Shown here one piece after another: positions 3,472 to 7,295 of a DNA stretch of 40,620 bases. A program made the position numbers and the translations under genes. Positions within the stretch are counted from its first letter, which is position 1. Each line of letters begins with the position of its first letter. A model generated the notes under the pieces. It was not told the origin of the DNA, did not search any database, and saw only the letters and a program-made list of their open reading frames with translations. The stretch spans positions 1 through 40,620 of the forward strand of contig JBHLON010000030.1 in NCBI GenBank assembly GCA_048940445.1. Direction: 5' to 3'. This DNA comes from Promethearchaeota archaeon. GTDB taxonomy: Archaea; Asgardarchaeota; Lokiarchaeia; Sigyniarchaeales; SOKP01.

Positions 3472-3882
3472 ATGGAAGATCAACCAGAAAATCTGGCTAA
3501 TATTGAAGCCTTAAAACATAAAATTGGATTCGGAATAAAAATTTGGTTAGAATTTCAAAATAATCAACGAAAGAACATTCTAGGCTCAGGGTGGGCAAAA
3601 TTATTAGAAAGTATAAATGTGAATCAAAAGGAAGAACCTAAATCCTTGACTGTAGCAGCTAAAGAATGTGGCTATTCCTATAAATATGCATGGAATATAT
3701 TAAAAAGAATTGAAAAAAGAACTGGTATCTCTCCCGTATTAACTGCAAAGGGAGGTGCTGGTGGTGGAGGGTACGTAAAATTAAACGAATGGGGGAAATA
3801 TTTGTTAAAAACTTATAAGAATTTACTGTATGAGTTAAAAGAAGTTGAGAAAAAACTTGAAAAAACCTTTAAAATAACCTAG
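3472..3882 (+). CDS. ModE-type winged-helix DNA-binding protein (N-terminal domain only)
   Basis: KIWLE..LGSGWAKLLESI..SLTVAAKECGYSYKYAWNILKRIE..KGGAGGGYVKLNEWG matches the ModE HTH pattern; no TOBE/molybdate-binding domain. Confidence 0.85.
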   Translation: MEDQPENLANIEALKHKIGFGIKIWLEFQNNQRKNILGSGWAKLLESINVNQKEEPKSLTVAAKECGYSYKYAWNILKRIEKRTGISPVLTAKGGAGGGGYVKLNEWGKYLLKTYKNLLYELKEVEKKLEKTFKIT

Positions 3883-3976: not shown

Positions 3977-4402
3977 GTGGAAGAAATAATTCGGAAATTC
4001 AATGAAGTAAAAGTATCTGAATTTATGATAAAAGAACCTATTTTTATTACACCTAATGAGAAAGTCAGTACCACTGAACTGCTAATGTTAAGGAAAAATG
4101 TGGGAAGCCTTCCTGTAGTTAACAATTCTAAAGATAAGAGAGTAATAGGAATTATTACTCAAAGAGATATTAGGTTAGCTCGATTTGCCATGGATTTAGA
4201 ATCCCCAAATACACGAGTTAGAGATTTGATGACTCCAGATCCCATTGTTGCAAAAGTCACAGATTCGTTAGTACAAGTTTTGGAGAATTTAGTGAAGAAT
4301 AACATTGAACGTTTACCAGTAATAAATGATAATCAAAATTTAATCGGTTATATTACTAAACAATCTATAATCGAAACCATATATAAACGTCTCTATCAAT
4401 AG
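3977..4402 (+). CDS. CBS domain pair protein
   Basis: Two CBS repeats (VSEFM..LPVV..GIITQRD; VRDLMT..LPVI..GYITKQS); GTG start preceded by GGGAGA. Confidence 0.9.
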   Translation: MEEIIRKFNEVKVSEFMIKEPIFITPNEKVSTTELLMLRKNVGSLPVVNNSKDKRVIGIITQRDIRLARFAMDLESPNTRVRDLMTPDPIVAKVTDSLVQVLENLVKNNIERLPVINDNQNLIGYITKQSIIETIYKRLYQ

Positions 4403-4537: not shown

Positions 4538-6064
4538 ATGGCATTACCTCTACCAGGAACTCCTATAATTCTTGATATTGGATCAGCTTATACAAAGGTA
4601 GGATTTGCAGGAGAGCCTAGTCCTAGGTTTGTATTTCCCACAATAACTGGTACGGAAAAGTATAAAGCTGTTATGGTTGATGTGAGTGCAAGGAATATAT
4701 ATGTGGGGAATGACGCTGCAAAAATGCGTGGAGTTTTAAAAATCAAACGACCAATAGAAAGGGGAGCAATAATGGATTGGAATGATTATTATGAAATTTT
4801 AAATTATTGTTTTTATTCCCTTTTAAGAGTCCCCGATCTTTCTCAATATCCTGTTTTGTATACTGAACCTCCATTTTTACAAAAAGAAACTAAAGAATAC
4901 ATTGCACAAGTATTATTTGAAACTCATCGCGTAGAAAAACTGATTATGGTTCCCACGCCTATCCTGTCAACATTTAGCGTTGGATTAACAACTGGTTTAG
5001 TAATTGAAAGTGGAGATGGTATTACCTGGATTTGCCCAATTATCAATGGTCAAATTATTGACCAAACAGTACAAAAATTGACTTTGGCGGGTACAGATGT
5101 TAATCAGTATCTTAAAAACTTATTAATGAGAGAGGGGATACATATTGAATCTAGTGCAGTGGATGAGATTGTTAAGGATATGAAAGAGCGTAATTGCTAT
5201 TTTGTATTAGATCCTAAAAATCCTCCAAAGAAGGATGAAAAGTTTAGCACTACCATGCCAGATGGTTCCACTTTAAATGTACCACATTACATCTTTCACG
5301 AAGCACCCGAAGTACTATTTCAGCCTAGCCTTATTGGATACCCAATTGATAATATTCCTCAAGCAACTATAAAAAGTTTAGAAGGAATTGATAAGTATTA
5401 TTGGAGTGAACTTTTATCGCATATCGTTTTATCTGGAGGTAATTTATCCTATTCTGGTTTTGAAGAACGATTAGCGTTAGAATTATCAAATTTACTGCCT
5501 CAATTAGGAAAGATTCCTAAACCTAAACAAGAGAAATCATCATCTAAAGGAAAATCCCAACTTAAGTCTCTTGAAGTGGTGAAAAAACAAGAAGATACTT
5601 GTCCTCATTGTGGAACTAGAGTAGATTTATCCGACGGCAAAGAATTATGTCCTTCATGTGGAGGGCGAATTGTGTTACCGGAACTTACAATTAATTTAAA
5701 TGAATCAAATAAACAAGCGCCAATTATTGATGGGAAACTTTTTTGTCCTCATTGTGGAAAAAGTATTCCTGATAGCGCCTCAATTTTTTGCCCATATTGT
5801 GGAAAAAGTGTTGAGACTTCTGAAATTAAAGAGAGTTCTAAGAAAGTAATTGATTCACCTCCTCCTGCCAAAGAATTTGCTGGCTTCTTCGAATCATCTG
5901 ATGAAGTACTAAACTTCTTTGTTCCGGATAATCTTATGTATTCTATCTTTAATGGAGCAGCGATTTTAGGAACGCTCCCTTCATTTCTAAGATTGTTTAT
6001 TACTTACGAACAATTCCTTTCGAATAAGGATCTTTTATATAAAGATATAAGTGAAATTTTCTGA
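4538..6064 (+). CDS. Actin-related protein (Asgard ARP) with double zinc-ribbon insertion
   Basis: Actin motifs DIGSAYTKVGFAGEPSPRFVFP, YVGNDA, PIERG, PVLYTEPP, FET, TTGLVIESGDG, LAG, MPDG, APEVLFQPSLIG, IVLSGG, YSIFNGAAILGTL. About 130-aa insert with CPHC/CPSC/CPHC/CPYC. Confidence 0.93.
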   Translation: MALPLPGTPIILDIGSAYTKVGFAGEPSPRFVFPTITGTEKYKAVMVDVSARNIYVGNDAAKMRGVLKIKRPIERGAIMDWNDYYEILNYCFYSLLRVPDLSQYPVLYTEPPFLQKETKEYIAQVLFETHRVEKLIMVPTPILSTFSVGLTTGLVIESGDGITWICPIINGQIIDQTVQKLTLAGTDVNQYLKNLLMREGIHIESSAVDEIVKDMKERNCYFVLDPKNPPKKDEKFSTTMPDGSTLNVPHYIFHEAPEVLFQPSLIGYPIDNIPQATIKSLEGIDKYYWSELLSHIVLSGGNLSYSGFEERLALELSNLLPQLGKIPKPKQEKSSSKGKSQLKSLEVVKKQEDTCPHCGTRVDLSDGKELCPSCGGRIVLPELTINLNESNKQAPIIDGKLFCPHCGKSIPDSASIFCPYCGKSVETSEIKESSKKVIDSPPPAKEFAGFFESSDEVLNFFVPDNLMYSIFNGAAILGTLPSFLRLFITYEQFLSNKDLLYKDISEIF

Positions 6065-6194: not shown

Positions 6195-7295
6195 TTGAAA
6201 AGTAAATTACGGAGCTTAACAGTAATTGCTATAATTTTTTCCTTATTCTTCGTAATTCTTCCATCAGTTTCAGCGAAAACAAGACAAAGCTATTTAGTGG
6301 ACTTTCTCTATCATAATTATAACGAAAATCGGCGTTTTGGTAATAATTTTGAGGATACTTTCTATGCCTTAGAGATAATCAATCATTACAATTTATACTC
6401 AATCCCAGTCTTATTTGGAACTGAAGTTAAAATTGATAAACCTACATTTATTGATAATTTAAAAACAGATTTAGAGGAACTGTTTGAGGACAATGGTGTT
6501 AACCTTTATGTTTTATTCTATATATTAAGTTGTCTGAACATATTAAATGGGTTAGAATCATTAGATTCGAATATAAGGCATAAAATAAACGAATATGTTA
6601 ATCAAACCGTACAACCATCTGGTGGTTTTTCAATTACAAATTCATCCAAAGTAGCGAATCTCATCTCAACCTTTATGGCTTATAAAGTATATGGTTTGTT
6701 AGGGGAACCTATTATTAATGAAACAACCCATATAAACTGGATACTCTCTTGTAATAATACTGATGGGGGTTATGGAGCTAACCAGACTTTACCCTCAACA
6801 ATTTCAACAACATATTATGCAACTTATCTAATTTATGAGTTCTCTTCAATCCTAGTTAACGAATCTGCCACATTAAACTATCTAACATCATTCTATTGTA
6901 GTGACTCATATGATAAAGTTAATTATGGTGGATATTTCCCTAATCAAGTATCTGATAACACATTATTAAGTAGTACTTATTATTGTGTTAAATCTATTGA
7001 TTTAATCGACAATTCGAAGTTGCATCCAGATTCGACAACAAATTGGATATTAGGCCATCAAAATTTTCAAGATGGTGGATTTATAGAAAACCCCTCCGCT
7101 CAAGGTCAGGAATCTTCCTCGATAGCAGCATCCTATTATGCATTTAAATCATTACAGATCTTAAATGCACTTAGTTATTTAGATCAAGATGTCTTTATGG
7201 TCGAGTTTAACTACACAATTTTAATTATAGTACTCGCTATAATAGGTATAATAGCTGTGGTCATTGCCTTTATTTGGAAAAAAAGAAAAATATAA
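6195..7295 (+). CDS. Prenyltransferase/squalene-cyclase-repeat (alpha/alpha barrel) protein with signal peptide and C-terminal TM anchor
   Basis: Repeats QPSGGFS, CNNTDGGYG, NYGGYF, QNFQDGGF, each followed by an ST(YY)A-type helix. Hydrophobic N-terminus ending VSA|K; C-terminal TM plus WKKRKI. GAGGT 8 nt before the TTG start. Confidence 0.8.
   Translation: MKSKLRSLTVIAIIFSLFFVILPSVSAKTRQSYLVDFLYHNYNENRRFGNNFEDTFYALEIINHYNLYSIPVLFGTEVKIDKPTFIDNLKTDLEELFEDNGVNLYVLFYILSCLNILNGLESLDSNIRHKINEYVNQTVQPSGGFSITNSSKVANLISTFMAYKVYGLLGEPIINETTHINWILSCNNTDGGYGANQTLPSTISTTYYATYLIYEFSSILVNESATLNYLTSFYCSDSYDKVNYGGYFPNQVSDNTLLSSTYYCVKSIDLIDNSKLHPDSTTNWILGHQNFQDGGFIENPSAQGQESSSIAASYYAFKSLQILNALSYLDQDVFMVEFNYTILIIVLAIIGIIAVVIAFIWKKRKI

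What the first reader, a model, noticed from the sequence alone, without database searches (positions are those of the whole stretch)
5510..5905. About 130-aa tandem double zinc-ribbon module inserted inside the actin fold
Seen: between LSNLLPQLG and NFFVPDNLMYS (the actin 322-327 PSTMKI loop, subdomain 3, barbed-end side) lies a Lys/Ser linker, CPHC-x12-CPSC, a linker, CPHC-x11-CPYC and a PPP/acidic linker. Known: conventional actins have no such insert; DZR domains mediate protein or nucleic-acid binding. Inference: an actin with a built-in adaptor that could block barbed-end growth or tether filaments to a partner. I do not know of a characterised example.
Basis: partly seen in the sequence, partly recalled or inferred. 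Interest (0 to 1): 0.75.

Follow-up and report, generated by a model that had tools for sequence, protein, structure and literature searches.

The report
Lokiarchaeal actin relative with zinc ribbons
This is a real, strongly conserved actin-like protein of one order of Loki-type Asgard archaea. Two small zinc-binding modules on flexible tethers are spliced into a loop that normally glues actin subunits together. It has also lost actin's ATP-splitting residues, so it probably sits at the end of archaeal actin filaments as a stopper or anchor, but this is untested.

Summary
Window 4538-6064 (+) encodes a 508-aa actin-family protein (Pfam Actin 4e-66). Residues 325-456 (window 5510-5905) form an insert with two C4 zinc ribbons between helix alphaK and the next strand. 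This is the actin 322-328 loop of subdomain 3.

The insert is not an assembly artefact:
- All 117 full-length close homologues carry four CxxC pairs.
- All eight Cys are invariant in the 43-sequence alignment of close homologues.
- An insert profile finds it in every family of the window's order that it scored (117/117, 11/11, 2/2 genomes). Outside the order it finds only generic ribbons.
- The orthologue in cultured Ca. Lokiarchaeum ossiferum is UYP44711.1. It was published as an unnamed 'ARP' and has only one ribbon.

It is one of four actin paralogues in this genome and is not the Lokiactin. Nucleotide-binding loops are kept, but Q137 is T, H161 is W and D154 is E.

The barbed-end face is only 21% identical to Lokiactin, against 36% overall. 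The pointed-end face is 47% identical.

Best reading (inferred, about 0.45): a non-hydrolysing, one-faced ARP that docks on Lokiactin barbed ends and offers tethered ribbons to a partner.

I found no paper describing the insert. This scan has already reported the same family on many other genomes, with the same reading.

The parts
4538..6064 (+). Gene for the 508-aa zinc-ribbon actin-related protein (ARP-Zn), stop codon included
   Evidence: ORF list and translation. Pfam Actin 4e-66 plus zinc ribbons. AF2 core matches actin with TM 0.88-0.92 by target length.
4538..5509 (+). Actin core, residues 1-324 (subdomains 1, 2, 4 and most of 3). P-loops are kept (D13, G15, S16, K20; G159-D160-G161; K216/E217; G300/G301). 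Catalytic positions are changed (T140 for Q137, E157 for D154, W164 for H161).
   Evidence: Alignment to beta-actin and Lokiactin numbering, with family conservation. phmmer alignment to solved actins.
5510..5593 (+). N-terminal tether of the insert, residues 325-352. It starts with a near-invariant I-P after G324, then a variable Lys/Ser-rich linker.
   Evidence: G324 is invariant; I326 and P327 are invariant among close homologues and at least 90% conserved overall. Linker conservation is 0.60 and AF2 pLDDT is about 37. The linker is acidic in some distant orthologues.
5594..5665 (+). Zinc ribbon 1, residues 353-376 (C355, C358, C371, C374)
   Evidence: The four Cys are invariant in all 50 aligned family members, single-ribbon forms included. 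Conservation is 0.80, equal to the actin core.
5666..5737 (+). Short conserved hydrophobic stretch after ribbon 1 (I-x-I type), then the variable inter-ribbon linker; residues 377-400
   Evidence: The stretch is visible in distant orthologues. The inter-ribbon linker has conservation 0.29 and pLDDT below 50.
5738..5809 (+). Zinc ribbon 2, residues 401-424 (C403, C406, C418, C421)
   Evidence: Pfam Zn_ribbon_3/DZR best stretch is 397-426. The Cys are invariant among close homologues. The ribbon is absent in L. ossiferum UYP44711.1 and in f4-type proteins.
5810..5905 (+). C-terminal tether, residues 425-456: a variable linker, then a conserved acidic-aromatic patch (P-A-x-E-F; E446 and F447 near-invariant) leading into the core strand
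   Evidence: Alignments A1 and A3. An equivalent E-F or E-Y acidic patch is present in all distant orthologues. AF2 strand 447-450, with pLDDT rising from 50 to 77.
5906..6061 (+). C-terminal actin core, residues 457-508 (strand after the insert, then the subdomain 3/1 helices that line the hydrophobic cleft)
   Evidence: phmmer aligns 460-494 to actin 356-390 of PDB 9wc4. Conservation is 0.80.
6195..7295 (+). Conserved downstream neighbour: a 366-aa membrane protein with an N-terminal signal/anchor, a prenyltransferase-type alpha-alpha toroid domain, a C-terminal TM helix and a tail of a few basic residues
   Evidence: Pfam Prenyltrans 5.2e-20. The same gene follows ARP-Zn on the same strand in f1, f3 and f4 loci. 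It does so in more than 50 of 52 genomes cross-checked.
3472..3882 (+). Conserved upstream small protein (136 aa) with the look of a ModE/LysR-type winged helix-turn-helix; context only
   Evidence: Homologues lie upstream of ARP-Zn in f1 and f3 loci, 34-67% identical. Pfam gives only a weak HTH_1 match, E 0.033.
3977..4402 (+). CBS-pair protein between the wHTH gene and ARP-Zn; seen in the three f1-family loci examined, not in the f3 loci; context only
   Evidence: Pfam CBS 7.5e-29. Present in L005-L007. Absent between the two genes in L008-L010.

Best explanation
Shown: this is a genuine actin-related protein (ARP) paralogue under strong purifying selection. It is specific to one order of Lokiarchaeia-type Asgard archaea, the order that includes Ca. 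Lokiarchaeum ossiferum and Ca. Harpocratesius repetitus. It has a complete actin fold, with one or two C4 zinc ribbons on flexible tethers inserted in the alphaK/next-strand loop of subdomain 3. It keeps the nucleotide-binding loops but has replaced the residues that activate the hydrolytic water (Q137 to T, H161 to W, D154 to E).

Inferred mechanism: it binds ATP or ADP as a structural cofactor without actin-like turnover. Its well-conserved pointed-end face (D-loop, residues 61-65, the P-D-G loop of subdomain 4) docks on the barbed end of a Lokiactin filament or of another actin-family subunit. It cannot itself be extended, because its barbed-end face has diverged and the longitudinal contact loop carries about 130 extra residues. 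It would therefore act as a terminal subunit, that is a cap or an anchor.

The tethered ribbons, especially the always-present first one, would recruit a partner to that filament end. Candidate partners are membrane-protein tails, other ribbon-bearing proteins or nucleic acid. The conserved acidic-aromatic patch at the end of the insert may occupy the protein's own hydrophobic cleft.
For: Identity and reality:
- Pfam Actin 223.7 bits and zinc-ribbon families over their cut-offs.
- The AF2 core matches actin with TM 0.88-0.92.
- There are 521 homologues; the 120 best listed are almost all 498-512 aa and all but one carry ribbon Pfam families, and they come from independent assemblies.
- All 117 full-length close homologues have four CxxC pairs.
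- Ribbon 1 is as conserved as the core, 0.80 against 0.81.
- An insert profile hits 117/117, 11/11 and 2/2 genomes in the three families of the order that it scored. Elsewhere in the phylum it hits only generic ribbons, E above 1e-12.
- Among representatives of 1.8 billion proteins, every full-length relative at 42% identity or more has the insert.

Paralogue status: the genome has four actin-family genes, including a separate Lokiactin scoring 442 bits.

Catalysis: T140, E157 and W164 are 76%, 96% and 88% conserved in the family, while D13, G15, S16, K20, G159-D160-G161, K216, E217, G300 and G301 are kept.

One-faced character:
- Identity to Lokiactin is 36% overall, 47% on pointed-end contact residues and 21% on barbed-end contact residues (hypergeometric P = 0.003).
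- The same trend appears in five distant orthologues.
- There is no such asymmetry in the genome's two other ARPs.

The insert sits in the 322-325 loop, which contacts 243-245 of the next subunit in F-actin (PMC7247010).

Expression of the orthologue: L. ossiferum UYP44711.1 is P0273. It is one of the three ARPs whose transcripts were measured, at levels below Lokiactin (PMC9834061).
Against: - No binding, polymerisation or metal data exist.
- The contact-residue sets were taken from my knowledge of F-actin and only partly checked against a paper. The pointed-face enrichment alone is not significant (P about 0.1).
- The 322-328 loop lies at the filament surface: K326 and K328 are the residues mutated in a solved actin-tropomyosin filament complex (entry title, rank 22). 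With tethers of about 30 residues, the ribbons might be extruded sideways without blocking elongation.
- The hydrophobic cleft residues stay well conserved within the family (0.84-0.85). The barbed face is therefore remodelled, not dead.
- The D-loop and hydrophobic plug have normal length, so homopolymers are not excluded.
- I could not inspect model coordinates, so contacts between the insert and the core are unknown.
Confidence: 0.45

Rival explanations
1. Surface-decorated polymer. ARP-Zn polymerises on its own or copolymerises with Lokiactin. The insert leaves the longitudinal interface sideways, so the filament displays a row of zinc ribbons that bind membrane proteins, DNA or other filaments.
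For: - The D-loop, residues 61-65, the P-D-G loop and the hydrophobic plug have normal length and are conserved.
- The cleft-lining residues are conserved within the family (0.84-0.85).
- The tethers are long and predicted to be disordered.
- The loop is surface-exposed in F-actin next to K326/K328, the residues mutated in a solved actin-tropomyosin filament complex (entry title, rank 22).
Against: - Barbed-face contact residues are only 21% identical to Lokiactin (P = 0.003), and the W-loop and the 283-294 segment are poorly conserved even within the family, 0.60-0.66.
- The catalytic Q137 and H161 equivalents are lost.
- Transcripts of the L. ossiferum ARPs are several-fold below Lokiactin, which does not suit a stoichiometric copolymer (PMC9834061).
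Confidence: 0.2
2. Not a cytoskeletal end-binder. ARP-Zn is a monomeric or heterodimeric structural subunit of another complex, as Arp4, Arp5 and Arp8 are in chromatin remodellers, and its ribbons and charged tethers bind DNA or RNA.
For: - Hydrolysis residues are lost but nucleotide loops are kept, as in several non-polymerising eukaryotic ARPs (established knowledge).
- Zinc ribbons often bind nucleic acids.
- A small wHTH-like gene is conserved upstream.
- Earlier notes of this scan describe a different, Heimdall-type zinc-ribbon actin next to DNA boxes (not tested here).
Against: - No helicase/HSA-type partner is linked to the gene; the nearby helicase belongs to a general syntenic block.
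- Tether charge is not conserved: basic here, strongly acidic in P0124 and in the f3 proteins.
- The conserved pointed-end face argues for an actin-family partner.
- The constant neighbour is a membrane surface protein, not a nucleic-acid enzyme.
Confidence: 0.15
3. Masked nucleator rather than cap. The barbed face is functional but is covered by the insert's acidic-aromatic patch. When the ribbons engage a partner, for example at the membrane, the patch is released and ARP-Zn seeds a Lokiactin filament growing from its barbed end. This would resemble Arp3, whose C-terminal tail wedges into its own barbed-end groove.
For: - The E-F or E-Y acidic patch is conserved next to the core in all subfamilies.
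- Cleft residues are conserved.
- The Arp3 C-terminal tail is a precedent for autoinhibition through the barbed-end groove (PMC4947185).
- f3-type orthologues carry a conserved L-(L/I)-K-K-(T/V) stretch followed by an amphipathic and an acidic segment, an order reminiscent of a WH2-C-A module.
Against: - Pfam finds no WH2 or thymosin match in those segments.
- The L-K-K-T stretch is absent from the window's own subfamily.
- The barbed-face contact residues have diverged.
- No model coordinates were available to show docking.
Confidence: 0.1
4. Artefact: a misassembly, a chimeric contig or a mobile insertion (an intein or transposon remnant) inside an actin gene.
For: Read-level support could not be tested here.
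Against: - The same in-frame architecture is found in hundreds of proteins from NCBI, JGI, ENA and Logan assemblies and in closed genomes.
- The eight Cys are invariant among close homologues and length varies little, 498-512 aa.
- No intein or transposase domains were found.
Confidence: 0.01

Closest known systems
Ca. Lokiarchaeum ossiferum actin homologue UYP44711.1, one of three unnamed 'ARPs' in Rodrigues-Oliveira et al. 2022 (PMC9834061, Fig. 5d,e)
   Same: It is the orthologue. It has the same insertion site, the same first zinc ribbon and acidic tail, and the same downstream toroid membrane-protein gene followed by FolD. It lies in the same order as the window's genome.
   Different: It is 499 aa and has only one ribbon. 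Its C-terminal tether is long and charged, with an I-K-K-T stretch. The paper reports only its tree position and a transcript level below Lokiactin. It says nothing about the insert or the altered catalytic residues.
Lokiactin / conventional actin (this genome's copy L001; best solved match PDB 9wc4 'HC1 actin'; rabbit and human actins)
   Same: The fold and size of the core are the same (TM 0.88-0.92 by target length; phmmer 2.4e-70). The P-loops, the adenosine-binding K/E pair and the G-G motif are kept. The D-loop and hydrophobic plug have similar length.
   Different: Identity is 36%. Q137, H161 and D154 are replaced. The barbed-end contact residues have diverged. There is a 132-residue insert in the 322-328 loop.
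Eukaryotic ARPs that work through one face or through inserts: Arp3 (inserts within the actin core, C-terminal tail in its barbed-end groove), Arp11/Arp10 (terminal subunit of the dynactin Arp1 filament), Arp5/Arp8 (large inserts that bind nucleosome or DNA)
   Same: They share the principle: an actin fold that keeps one polymer interface, has lost or changed the other, and carries lineage-specific inserts that give new binding functions. PMC4947185 states that Arp3 inserts control filament interaction and subunit attachment, and that its tail wedges into the barbed-end groove. From memory, Arp3 also has an insert in the same alphaK/beta15 loop; I could not check this because the paper is not held.
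   Different: No specific orthology: solved Arp1 and actin chains score alike, about 1e-65. None of these ARPs carries zinc ribbons. If the reading is right, this protein would cap the barbed end, whereas Arp11 sits at the pointed end. The roles of Arp11, Arp5 and Arp8 are quoted from established knowledge and were not tested here.
Double zinc ribbon (Pfam DZR PF12773 / Zn_ribbon_3 PF13248) tails of membrane proteins, e.g. the 498-aa protein on contig C81 of the same genome
   Same: The layout is the same: two CPxCG...(F)CPxCG knuckles separated by a short linker. It is the best non-ARP match of the insert profile in this genome (8.6e-11) and the best DZR match (46 bits).
   Different: There the module is a C-terminal cytoplasmic tail, not an internal insert. 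The module is promiscuous, with 35 DZR-like matches in this genome, and its function is uncharacterised, so it gives no mechanism.

Membership tests
Actin family (Pfam PF00022; actin and ARPs) | Profile match over the curated cut-off | tested here: met
   223.7 bits against a cut-off of 27; residues 9-326 cover profile positions 6-359 of 410. The C-terminal part after the insert aligns to actin 356-390.
Actin family (Pfam PF00022; actin and ARPs) | Four-subdomain actin fold | tested here: met
   AF2 model with core pLDDT mostly 87-96. Foldseek against solved actins gives E 7e-36 and TM 0.88-0.92 by target length.
Actin family (Pfam PF00022; actin and ARPs) | Nucleotide-binding phosphate loops and adenosine pocket | tested here: met
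   D13, G15, S16, K20; G159-D160-G161; K216, E217; G300, G301 and Y305 are kept and 84-100% conserved in the family. Actual nucleotide binding cannot be tested here.
Bona fide filament-forming actin (Lokiactin / conventional actin) | Catalytic residues Q137 and H161 (and D154) that position the hydrolytic water | tested here: not met
   T140, W164 and E157 stand at these positions, 76%, 88% and 96% conserved in the family. This genome's Lokiactin has Q, H and D.
Bona fide filament-forming actin (Lokiactin / conventional actin) | Both longitudinal faces conserved, with an uninterrupted 322-325 contact loop | tested here: not met
   Barbed-face set 13/63 identical to Lokiactin, against 134/368 overall (P = 0.003). 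A 132-residue insert lies in the loop. The residue sets are partly from memory.
Bona fide filament-forming actin (Lokiactin / conventional actin) | Being the genome's highly conserved main actin | tested here: not met
   A separate gene on contig C72 scores 442 bits against PF00022. This one scores 217 bits and ranks third of four.
Zinc ribbon / DZR (PF13248, PF12773, PF13240) | Two CxxC knuckles per ribbon, with a profile match over the cut-off | tested here: met
   Zn_ribbon_3 44.6 bits (cut-off 27), DZR 37 (27.3), Zn_Ribbon_1 35.4 (25), two stretches each. The eight Cys are invariant among close homologues.
Zinc ribbon / DZR (PF13248, PF12773, PF13240) | Zinc actually bound; a folded ribbon | not testable with these tools
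   AF2 gives only moderate confidence: ribbons at pLDDT about 70-77 in the full model, and a mean of 59.8 with pTM 0.26 when the insert is folded alone.
A specific eukaryotic ARP class (Arp1-Arp10) | Closer to one ARP class than to actin | tested here: inconclusive
   Solved Arp1 chains (3e-65) and actins (5e-67 to 1e-64) score alike. No labelled phylogeny was made. Published trees place the orthologue among 'other ARPs' (PMC9834061).
WH2 / beta-thymosin actin-binding motif (considered for the insert's C-terminal tether) | Profile match to WH2 or thymosin; L-K-K-T/V preceded by an amphipathic helix | tested here: not met
   No Pfam match even at E up to 10. The L-K-K-T-like stretch exists only in f3-type orthologues, not in the window's protein.

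The most novel reading that the evidence does not exclude
ARP-Zn is a self-contained device for positioning filament ends. It is a hydrolysis-dead actin fold that caps (or, when unmasked, seeds) Lokiactin filaments. Through its tethered zinc ribbons it fastens that end to the cytoplasmic side of envelope proteins, such as the always-adjacent toroid membrane protein or the ribbon-tailed membrane proteins. This would be a prokaryotic, single-polypeptide forerunner of eukaryotic cap-and-anchor or nucleation-promoting machinery, and it would help to shape the protrusions of Lokiarchaeia.
Probability: 0.15. Interest if true: 0.85.

Novelty: new variant of a known kind. Interest (0 to 1): 0.6.

Why it matters
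[quoted passage not shown] This family is a clean, order-wide conserved ARP with three unusual properties that can be tested directly:
- a built-in zinc-ribbon adaptor;
- loss of the hydrolytic residues;
- an asymmetric loss of one filament face.

It is encoded in at least one cultured strain (L. ossiferum), so localisation, pull-downs and in vitro assays with Lokiactin are feasible.

If it caps or anchors filament ends, division of labour among actin paralogues (a builder and an end-regulator) would predate eukaryotes. It would also have been solved there by domain insertion rather than by separate capping proteins.

Tried and rejected
It gave no information on binding.
Read-level support and expression in this organism are untested.
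- AF2 on the isolated ribbons (residues 346-430, 50-sequence alignment): mean pLDDT 59.8, pTM 0.26. This is too poor for a fold search, so none was run.
- Model coordinates are not exposed. I could not measure insert-core contacts or superpose the model on a filament to look for clashes.
- ESM Atlas search with the ribbon region: only generic DZR clusters at scores of 0.83 or less, which is chance level by the tool's own figures.
- WH2/thymosin idea for the C-terminal tether: no Pfam match.
- The upstream 136-aa ORF was considered as a profilin-sized partner. Its conserved motifs look like a ModE/LysR-type wHTH instead.
- The Arp3 insert paper (PMC3537046) is not held. The point about the Arp3 alphaK/beta15 insert rests on memory.
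- Submitters' taxon names ('Hodarchaeota', 'Thorarchaeota', 'Odinarchaeota', 'Heimdallarchaeota') suggested a pan-Asgard family. Genome searches by GTDB placement show that strong matches occur in one order only, so I rejected that reading.
- Misassembly, intein and transposon remnant were considered and rejected.
Full report
**1. What is in the sequence**

Window 4538-6064 (+) is a single open frame of 508 codons. Pfam matches Actin over residues 9-326 (4e-66, 223.7 bits against a cut-off of 27). Several zinc-ribbon families pass their cut-offs over residues 354-377 and 397-426: Zn_ribbon_3 at 44.6 bits, DZR at 37 and Zn_Ribbon_1 at 35.4.

The protein has eleven Cys. Eight of them form four CxxC pairs at 355/358, 371/374, 403/406 and 418/421.

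phmmer against all solved chains aligns residues 6-323 and 460-494 to the two sides of the actin 322-328 loop. The best match is 'HC1 actin' 9wc4 at 2.4e-70, and conventional actins and Arp1 score about 1e-65. An alignment with this genome's Lokiactin places the break between actin positions 327 and 328.

The AF2 model (50-sequence alignment, mean pLDDT 79, pTM 0.73) has a confident actin core. Helix 308-323 comes first, then the insert, then strand 460-461. The core superposes on solved actins with TM 0.88-0.92 by target length.

**2. The insert is real and conserved**

- A word-indexed search found 521 homologues. The best 120 are almost all 498-512 aa, all but one carry the same Pfam ribbon families, and they come from NCBI, JGI, ENA and Logan assemblies.
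- All 117 full-length close homologues have four CxxC pairs in the insert.
- In a 43-sequence alignment all eight Cys are invariant. So are G324, I326 and P327 at the entry of the insert, and G359, P372, S415, F417, P419, G422 and F447 inside it. E446 is conserved in at least 90% of these sequences.
- Ribbon 1 is as conserved as the actin core (0.80 against 0.81). Ribbon 2 is somewhat less conserved (0.69). The linkers are variable (0.29-0.60).
- An exhaustive HMMER scan of 1.8 billion cluster representatives shows that every full-length relative at 42% identity or more carries ribbons at the same site. These relatives have longer and often very acidic tethers (P0123, P0124, P0127, P0130). One form has only the first ribbon (P0126). 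The next hits, at 39% identity or less, are ordinary actins and ARPs.

The family and the insert are therefore coextensive. I found no close relative without the insert.

**3. Who has it**

Searching one genome per species by GTDB placement, the single-sequence query hit 127/134 genomes of the window's own family. It also hit some genomes of three sister families in the same order, and nothing convincing elsewhere.

A profile of the insert alone (alignment A2) hit 117/117, 11/11 and 2/2 genomes of at least 80% completeness in three families of that order. In nearly all of these genomes the best match runs over most of the insert and lies in a 500-566-aa frame. Two genomes of the window's own family, G233 and G147, gave only weak generic hits of about 1e-7. 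Outside the order there were only partial hits to generic ribbons in unrelated frames, none better than about 1e-11.

The order contains closed genomes. Exact look-up identifies them as Ca. Lokiarchaeum ossiferum (orthologue UYP44711.1, 499 aa, one ribbon) and Ca. Harpocratesius repetitus (552 aa, two ribbons).

Submitters' labels such as 'Hodarchaeota', 'Thorarchaeota' or 'Odinarchaeota' on close homologues do not agree with this placement. I do not rely on them.

**4. It is an ARP paralogue, not the actin**

The genome encodes four actin-family proteins:
- a Lokiactin (442 bits against PF00022);
- a 371-aa ARP (299 bits);
- this protein (217 bits);
- a divergent 380-aa ARP (161 bits).

L. 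ossiferum also has four. The paper that describes them shows Lokiactin forming the filaments and gives only a tree position and lower transcript levels for the other three, including UYP44711.1 (PMC9834061).

**5. Active site**

The phosphate loops and adenosine pocket are kept and highly conserved: D13, G15, S16, K20; G159-D160-G161; K216/E217; G300/G301; Y305.

The positions of actin Q137, D154 and H161 are T140, E157 and W164, conserved 76%, 96% and 88% in the family. This genome's Lokiactin has Q, D and H.

By established knowledge of actin catalysis, Q137 and H161 position the attacking water. I therefore infer nucleotide binding without actin-like hydrolysis.

**6. The two filament faces**

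I used F-actin contact residues from my own knowledge, partly checked against PMC7247010. That paper gives the D-loop 38-52, the 243-245 to 322-325 contact, the W-loop, the C-terminus, the 135-146 cleft helix and the plug 262-272.

| Residue set | Identical to Lokiactin | Note |
|---|---|---|
| All aligned positions | 134/368 (36%) | |
| Pointed-end face | 17/36 (47%) | enrichment not significant, P about 0.1 |
| Barbed-end face | 13/63 (21%) | hypergeometric P = 0.003 |

Five distant orthologues show the same direction. The genome's two other ARPs show no asymmetry (43/44% and 28/26%).

Within the family, the pointed-face set is more conserved (0.83) than the barbed-face set (0.72). The cleft-lining segments 139-146 and 345-356 nevertheless remain well conserved (0.84-0.85).

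**7. The insert itself**

Its layout is as follows:
- an I-P entry after G324;
- a variable tether, basic here and acidic in other lineages;
- ribbon 1, followed by a short hydrophobic I-x-I stretch;
- a variable linker;
- ribbon 2, which is optional;
- a variable tether;
- an acidic-aromatic patch (P-A-x-E-F here, E-Y or E-F elsewhere), immediately before the core strand.

AF2 gives the ribbons moderate confidence and the tethers very low confidence. The isolated ribbons do not pack into one domain. I read them as two independently tethered knuckles, of which the first is the essential one.

The same kind of double ribbon forms the cytoplasmic tail of a 498-aa membrane protein elsewhere in this genome. 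The genome holds 35 DZR-like matches. The module is promiscuous and its function is uncharacterised.

**8. Context**

The gene is followed, on the same strand, by a 366-aa membrane protein. That protein has an N-terminal signal/anchor, a prenyltransferase-type alpha-alpha toroid domain, a C-terminal TM helix and only a few basic residues in the cytoplasm.

This pair is kept in all three families of the order, including a high-GC genome. I cross-checked coordinates. The two genes are neighbours in more than 50 of 52 genomes. The exceptions are one split across contigs and one with a 2.3-kb gap. Two otherwise fairly complete genomes of the family (G233, G147) lack both genes.

A small wHTH-like gene is conserved upstream. 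FolD, a DRG-type GTPase and a helicase complete a syntenic block, which looks like general synteny.

The pairing with the surface protein is suggestive but not proof of a functional link, because almost all of that protein lies outside the cell.

**9. Interpretation**

- Shown: the observation, the conservation, the paralogue status, the altered catalytic residues, the asymmetric divergence of the two faces, and the gene pairing.
- Inferred: the protein docks by its pointed-end face on the barbed end of a Lokiactin filament and cannot be extended. It presents zinc ribbons at that end for a partner. I give this about 0.45.
- Rivals: a ribbon-decorated (co)polymer (0.2); a non-cytoskeletal subunit that binds nucleic acid (0.15); a masked nucleator whose acidic-aromatic patch covers its own cleft (0.1); an artefact (0.01).

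I could not test binding.

**10. Novelty**

Full-text searches for Asgard or Lokiarchaea with actin and zinc ribbon, Zn-ribbon or zinc finger found no description of this architecture. Neither did searches for ARPs and insertions, or for 'asgardactin'. Subscription journals are not covered by these searches.

The orthologue has appeared in published trees as an unnamed ARP. I therefore class this as a new variant of a known kind.

This scan has already reported the same family on many other genomes, and the follow-up readings agree with mine. My face analysis was done before I saw them.

Noticed in passing
P0273 (L009:4807-6303:-), P0274 (L008:4963-6618:-), P0127, P0130; no counterpart in window 5810-5905: f3-type orthologues, including L. 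ossiferum UYP44711.1, share three elements in the C-terminal tether of the insert. These are a conserved basic stretch ending L-(L/I)-K-K-(T/V), then an amphipathic D/E-E-L/F-A segment, then an acidic E-Y patch. The order recalls the WH2-C-A module of WASP-type nucleation factors. Pfam finds no WH2 or thymosin match, so this is a weak lead only.
   Followed up: partly
window 6195-7295 (+): A membrane protein with a prenyltransferase-type alpha-alpha toroid domain. It is predicted to lie outside the cell between an N-terminal signal/anchor and a C-terminal TM helix with a tiny basic tail. It lies directly downstream of ARP-Zn across the whole order (more than 50 of 52 genomes cross-checked). 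Two genomes lack both genes.
   Followed up: partly
window 3472-3882 (+): A 136-aa protein conserved upstream of ARP-Zn in two families of the order. It has invariant Y-S-Y-K-Y-x-W and G-G-x-G-G-G-G motifs typical of ModE/LysR-type winged helix-turn-helix domains. Pfam gives only a weak HTH_1 match (E 0.033). It may be a local regulator.
   Followed up: partly
G000 contig C81, L012:426-1922 (+): A 498-aa membrane protein with a Gly/Arg-rich, Tyr/Trp-rich N-terminus, TM helices and a cytoplasmic C-terminal double zinc ribbon. That ribbon is the closest relative of the ARP insert in this genome. The genome has 35 DZR-like matches at E of 1e-3 or better, so ribbon tails may be a common docking module here.
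   Followed up: partly
G000 contigs C10 (L002:1480-2595:-) and C119 (L004:1483-2625:+): These are the two other ARP paralogues of this genome (371 aa and 380 aa). The 380-aa one is very divergent: 26% identical to Lokiactin, with a long insertion in the subdomain 2 region. Neither shows the face asymmetry seen in ARP-Zn.
   Followed up: partly
one search hit list (P0002, P0063, P0070, P0083 and others): Close homologues (63-90% identical) carry submitter labels from four or five different Asgard 'phyla' (Hod-, Heimdall-, Odin-, Thor-, Hermodarchaeota). Genome searches by GTDB placement confine the family to one order. The labels of those MAGs look unreliable.
   Followed up: partly
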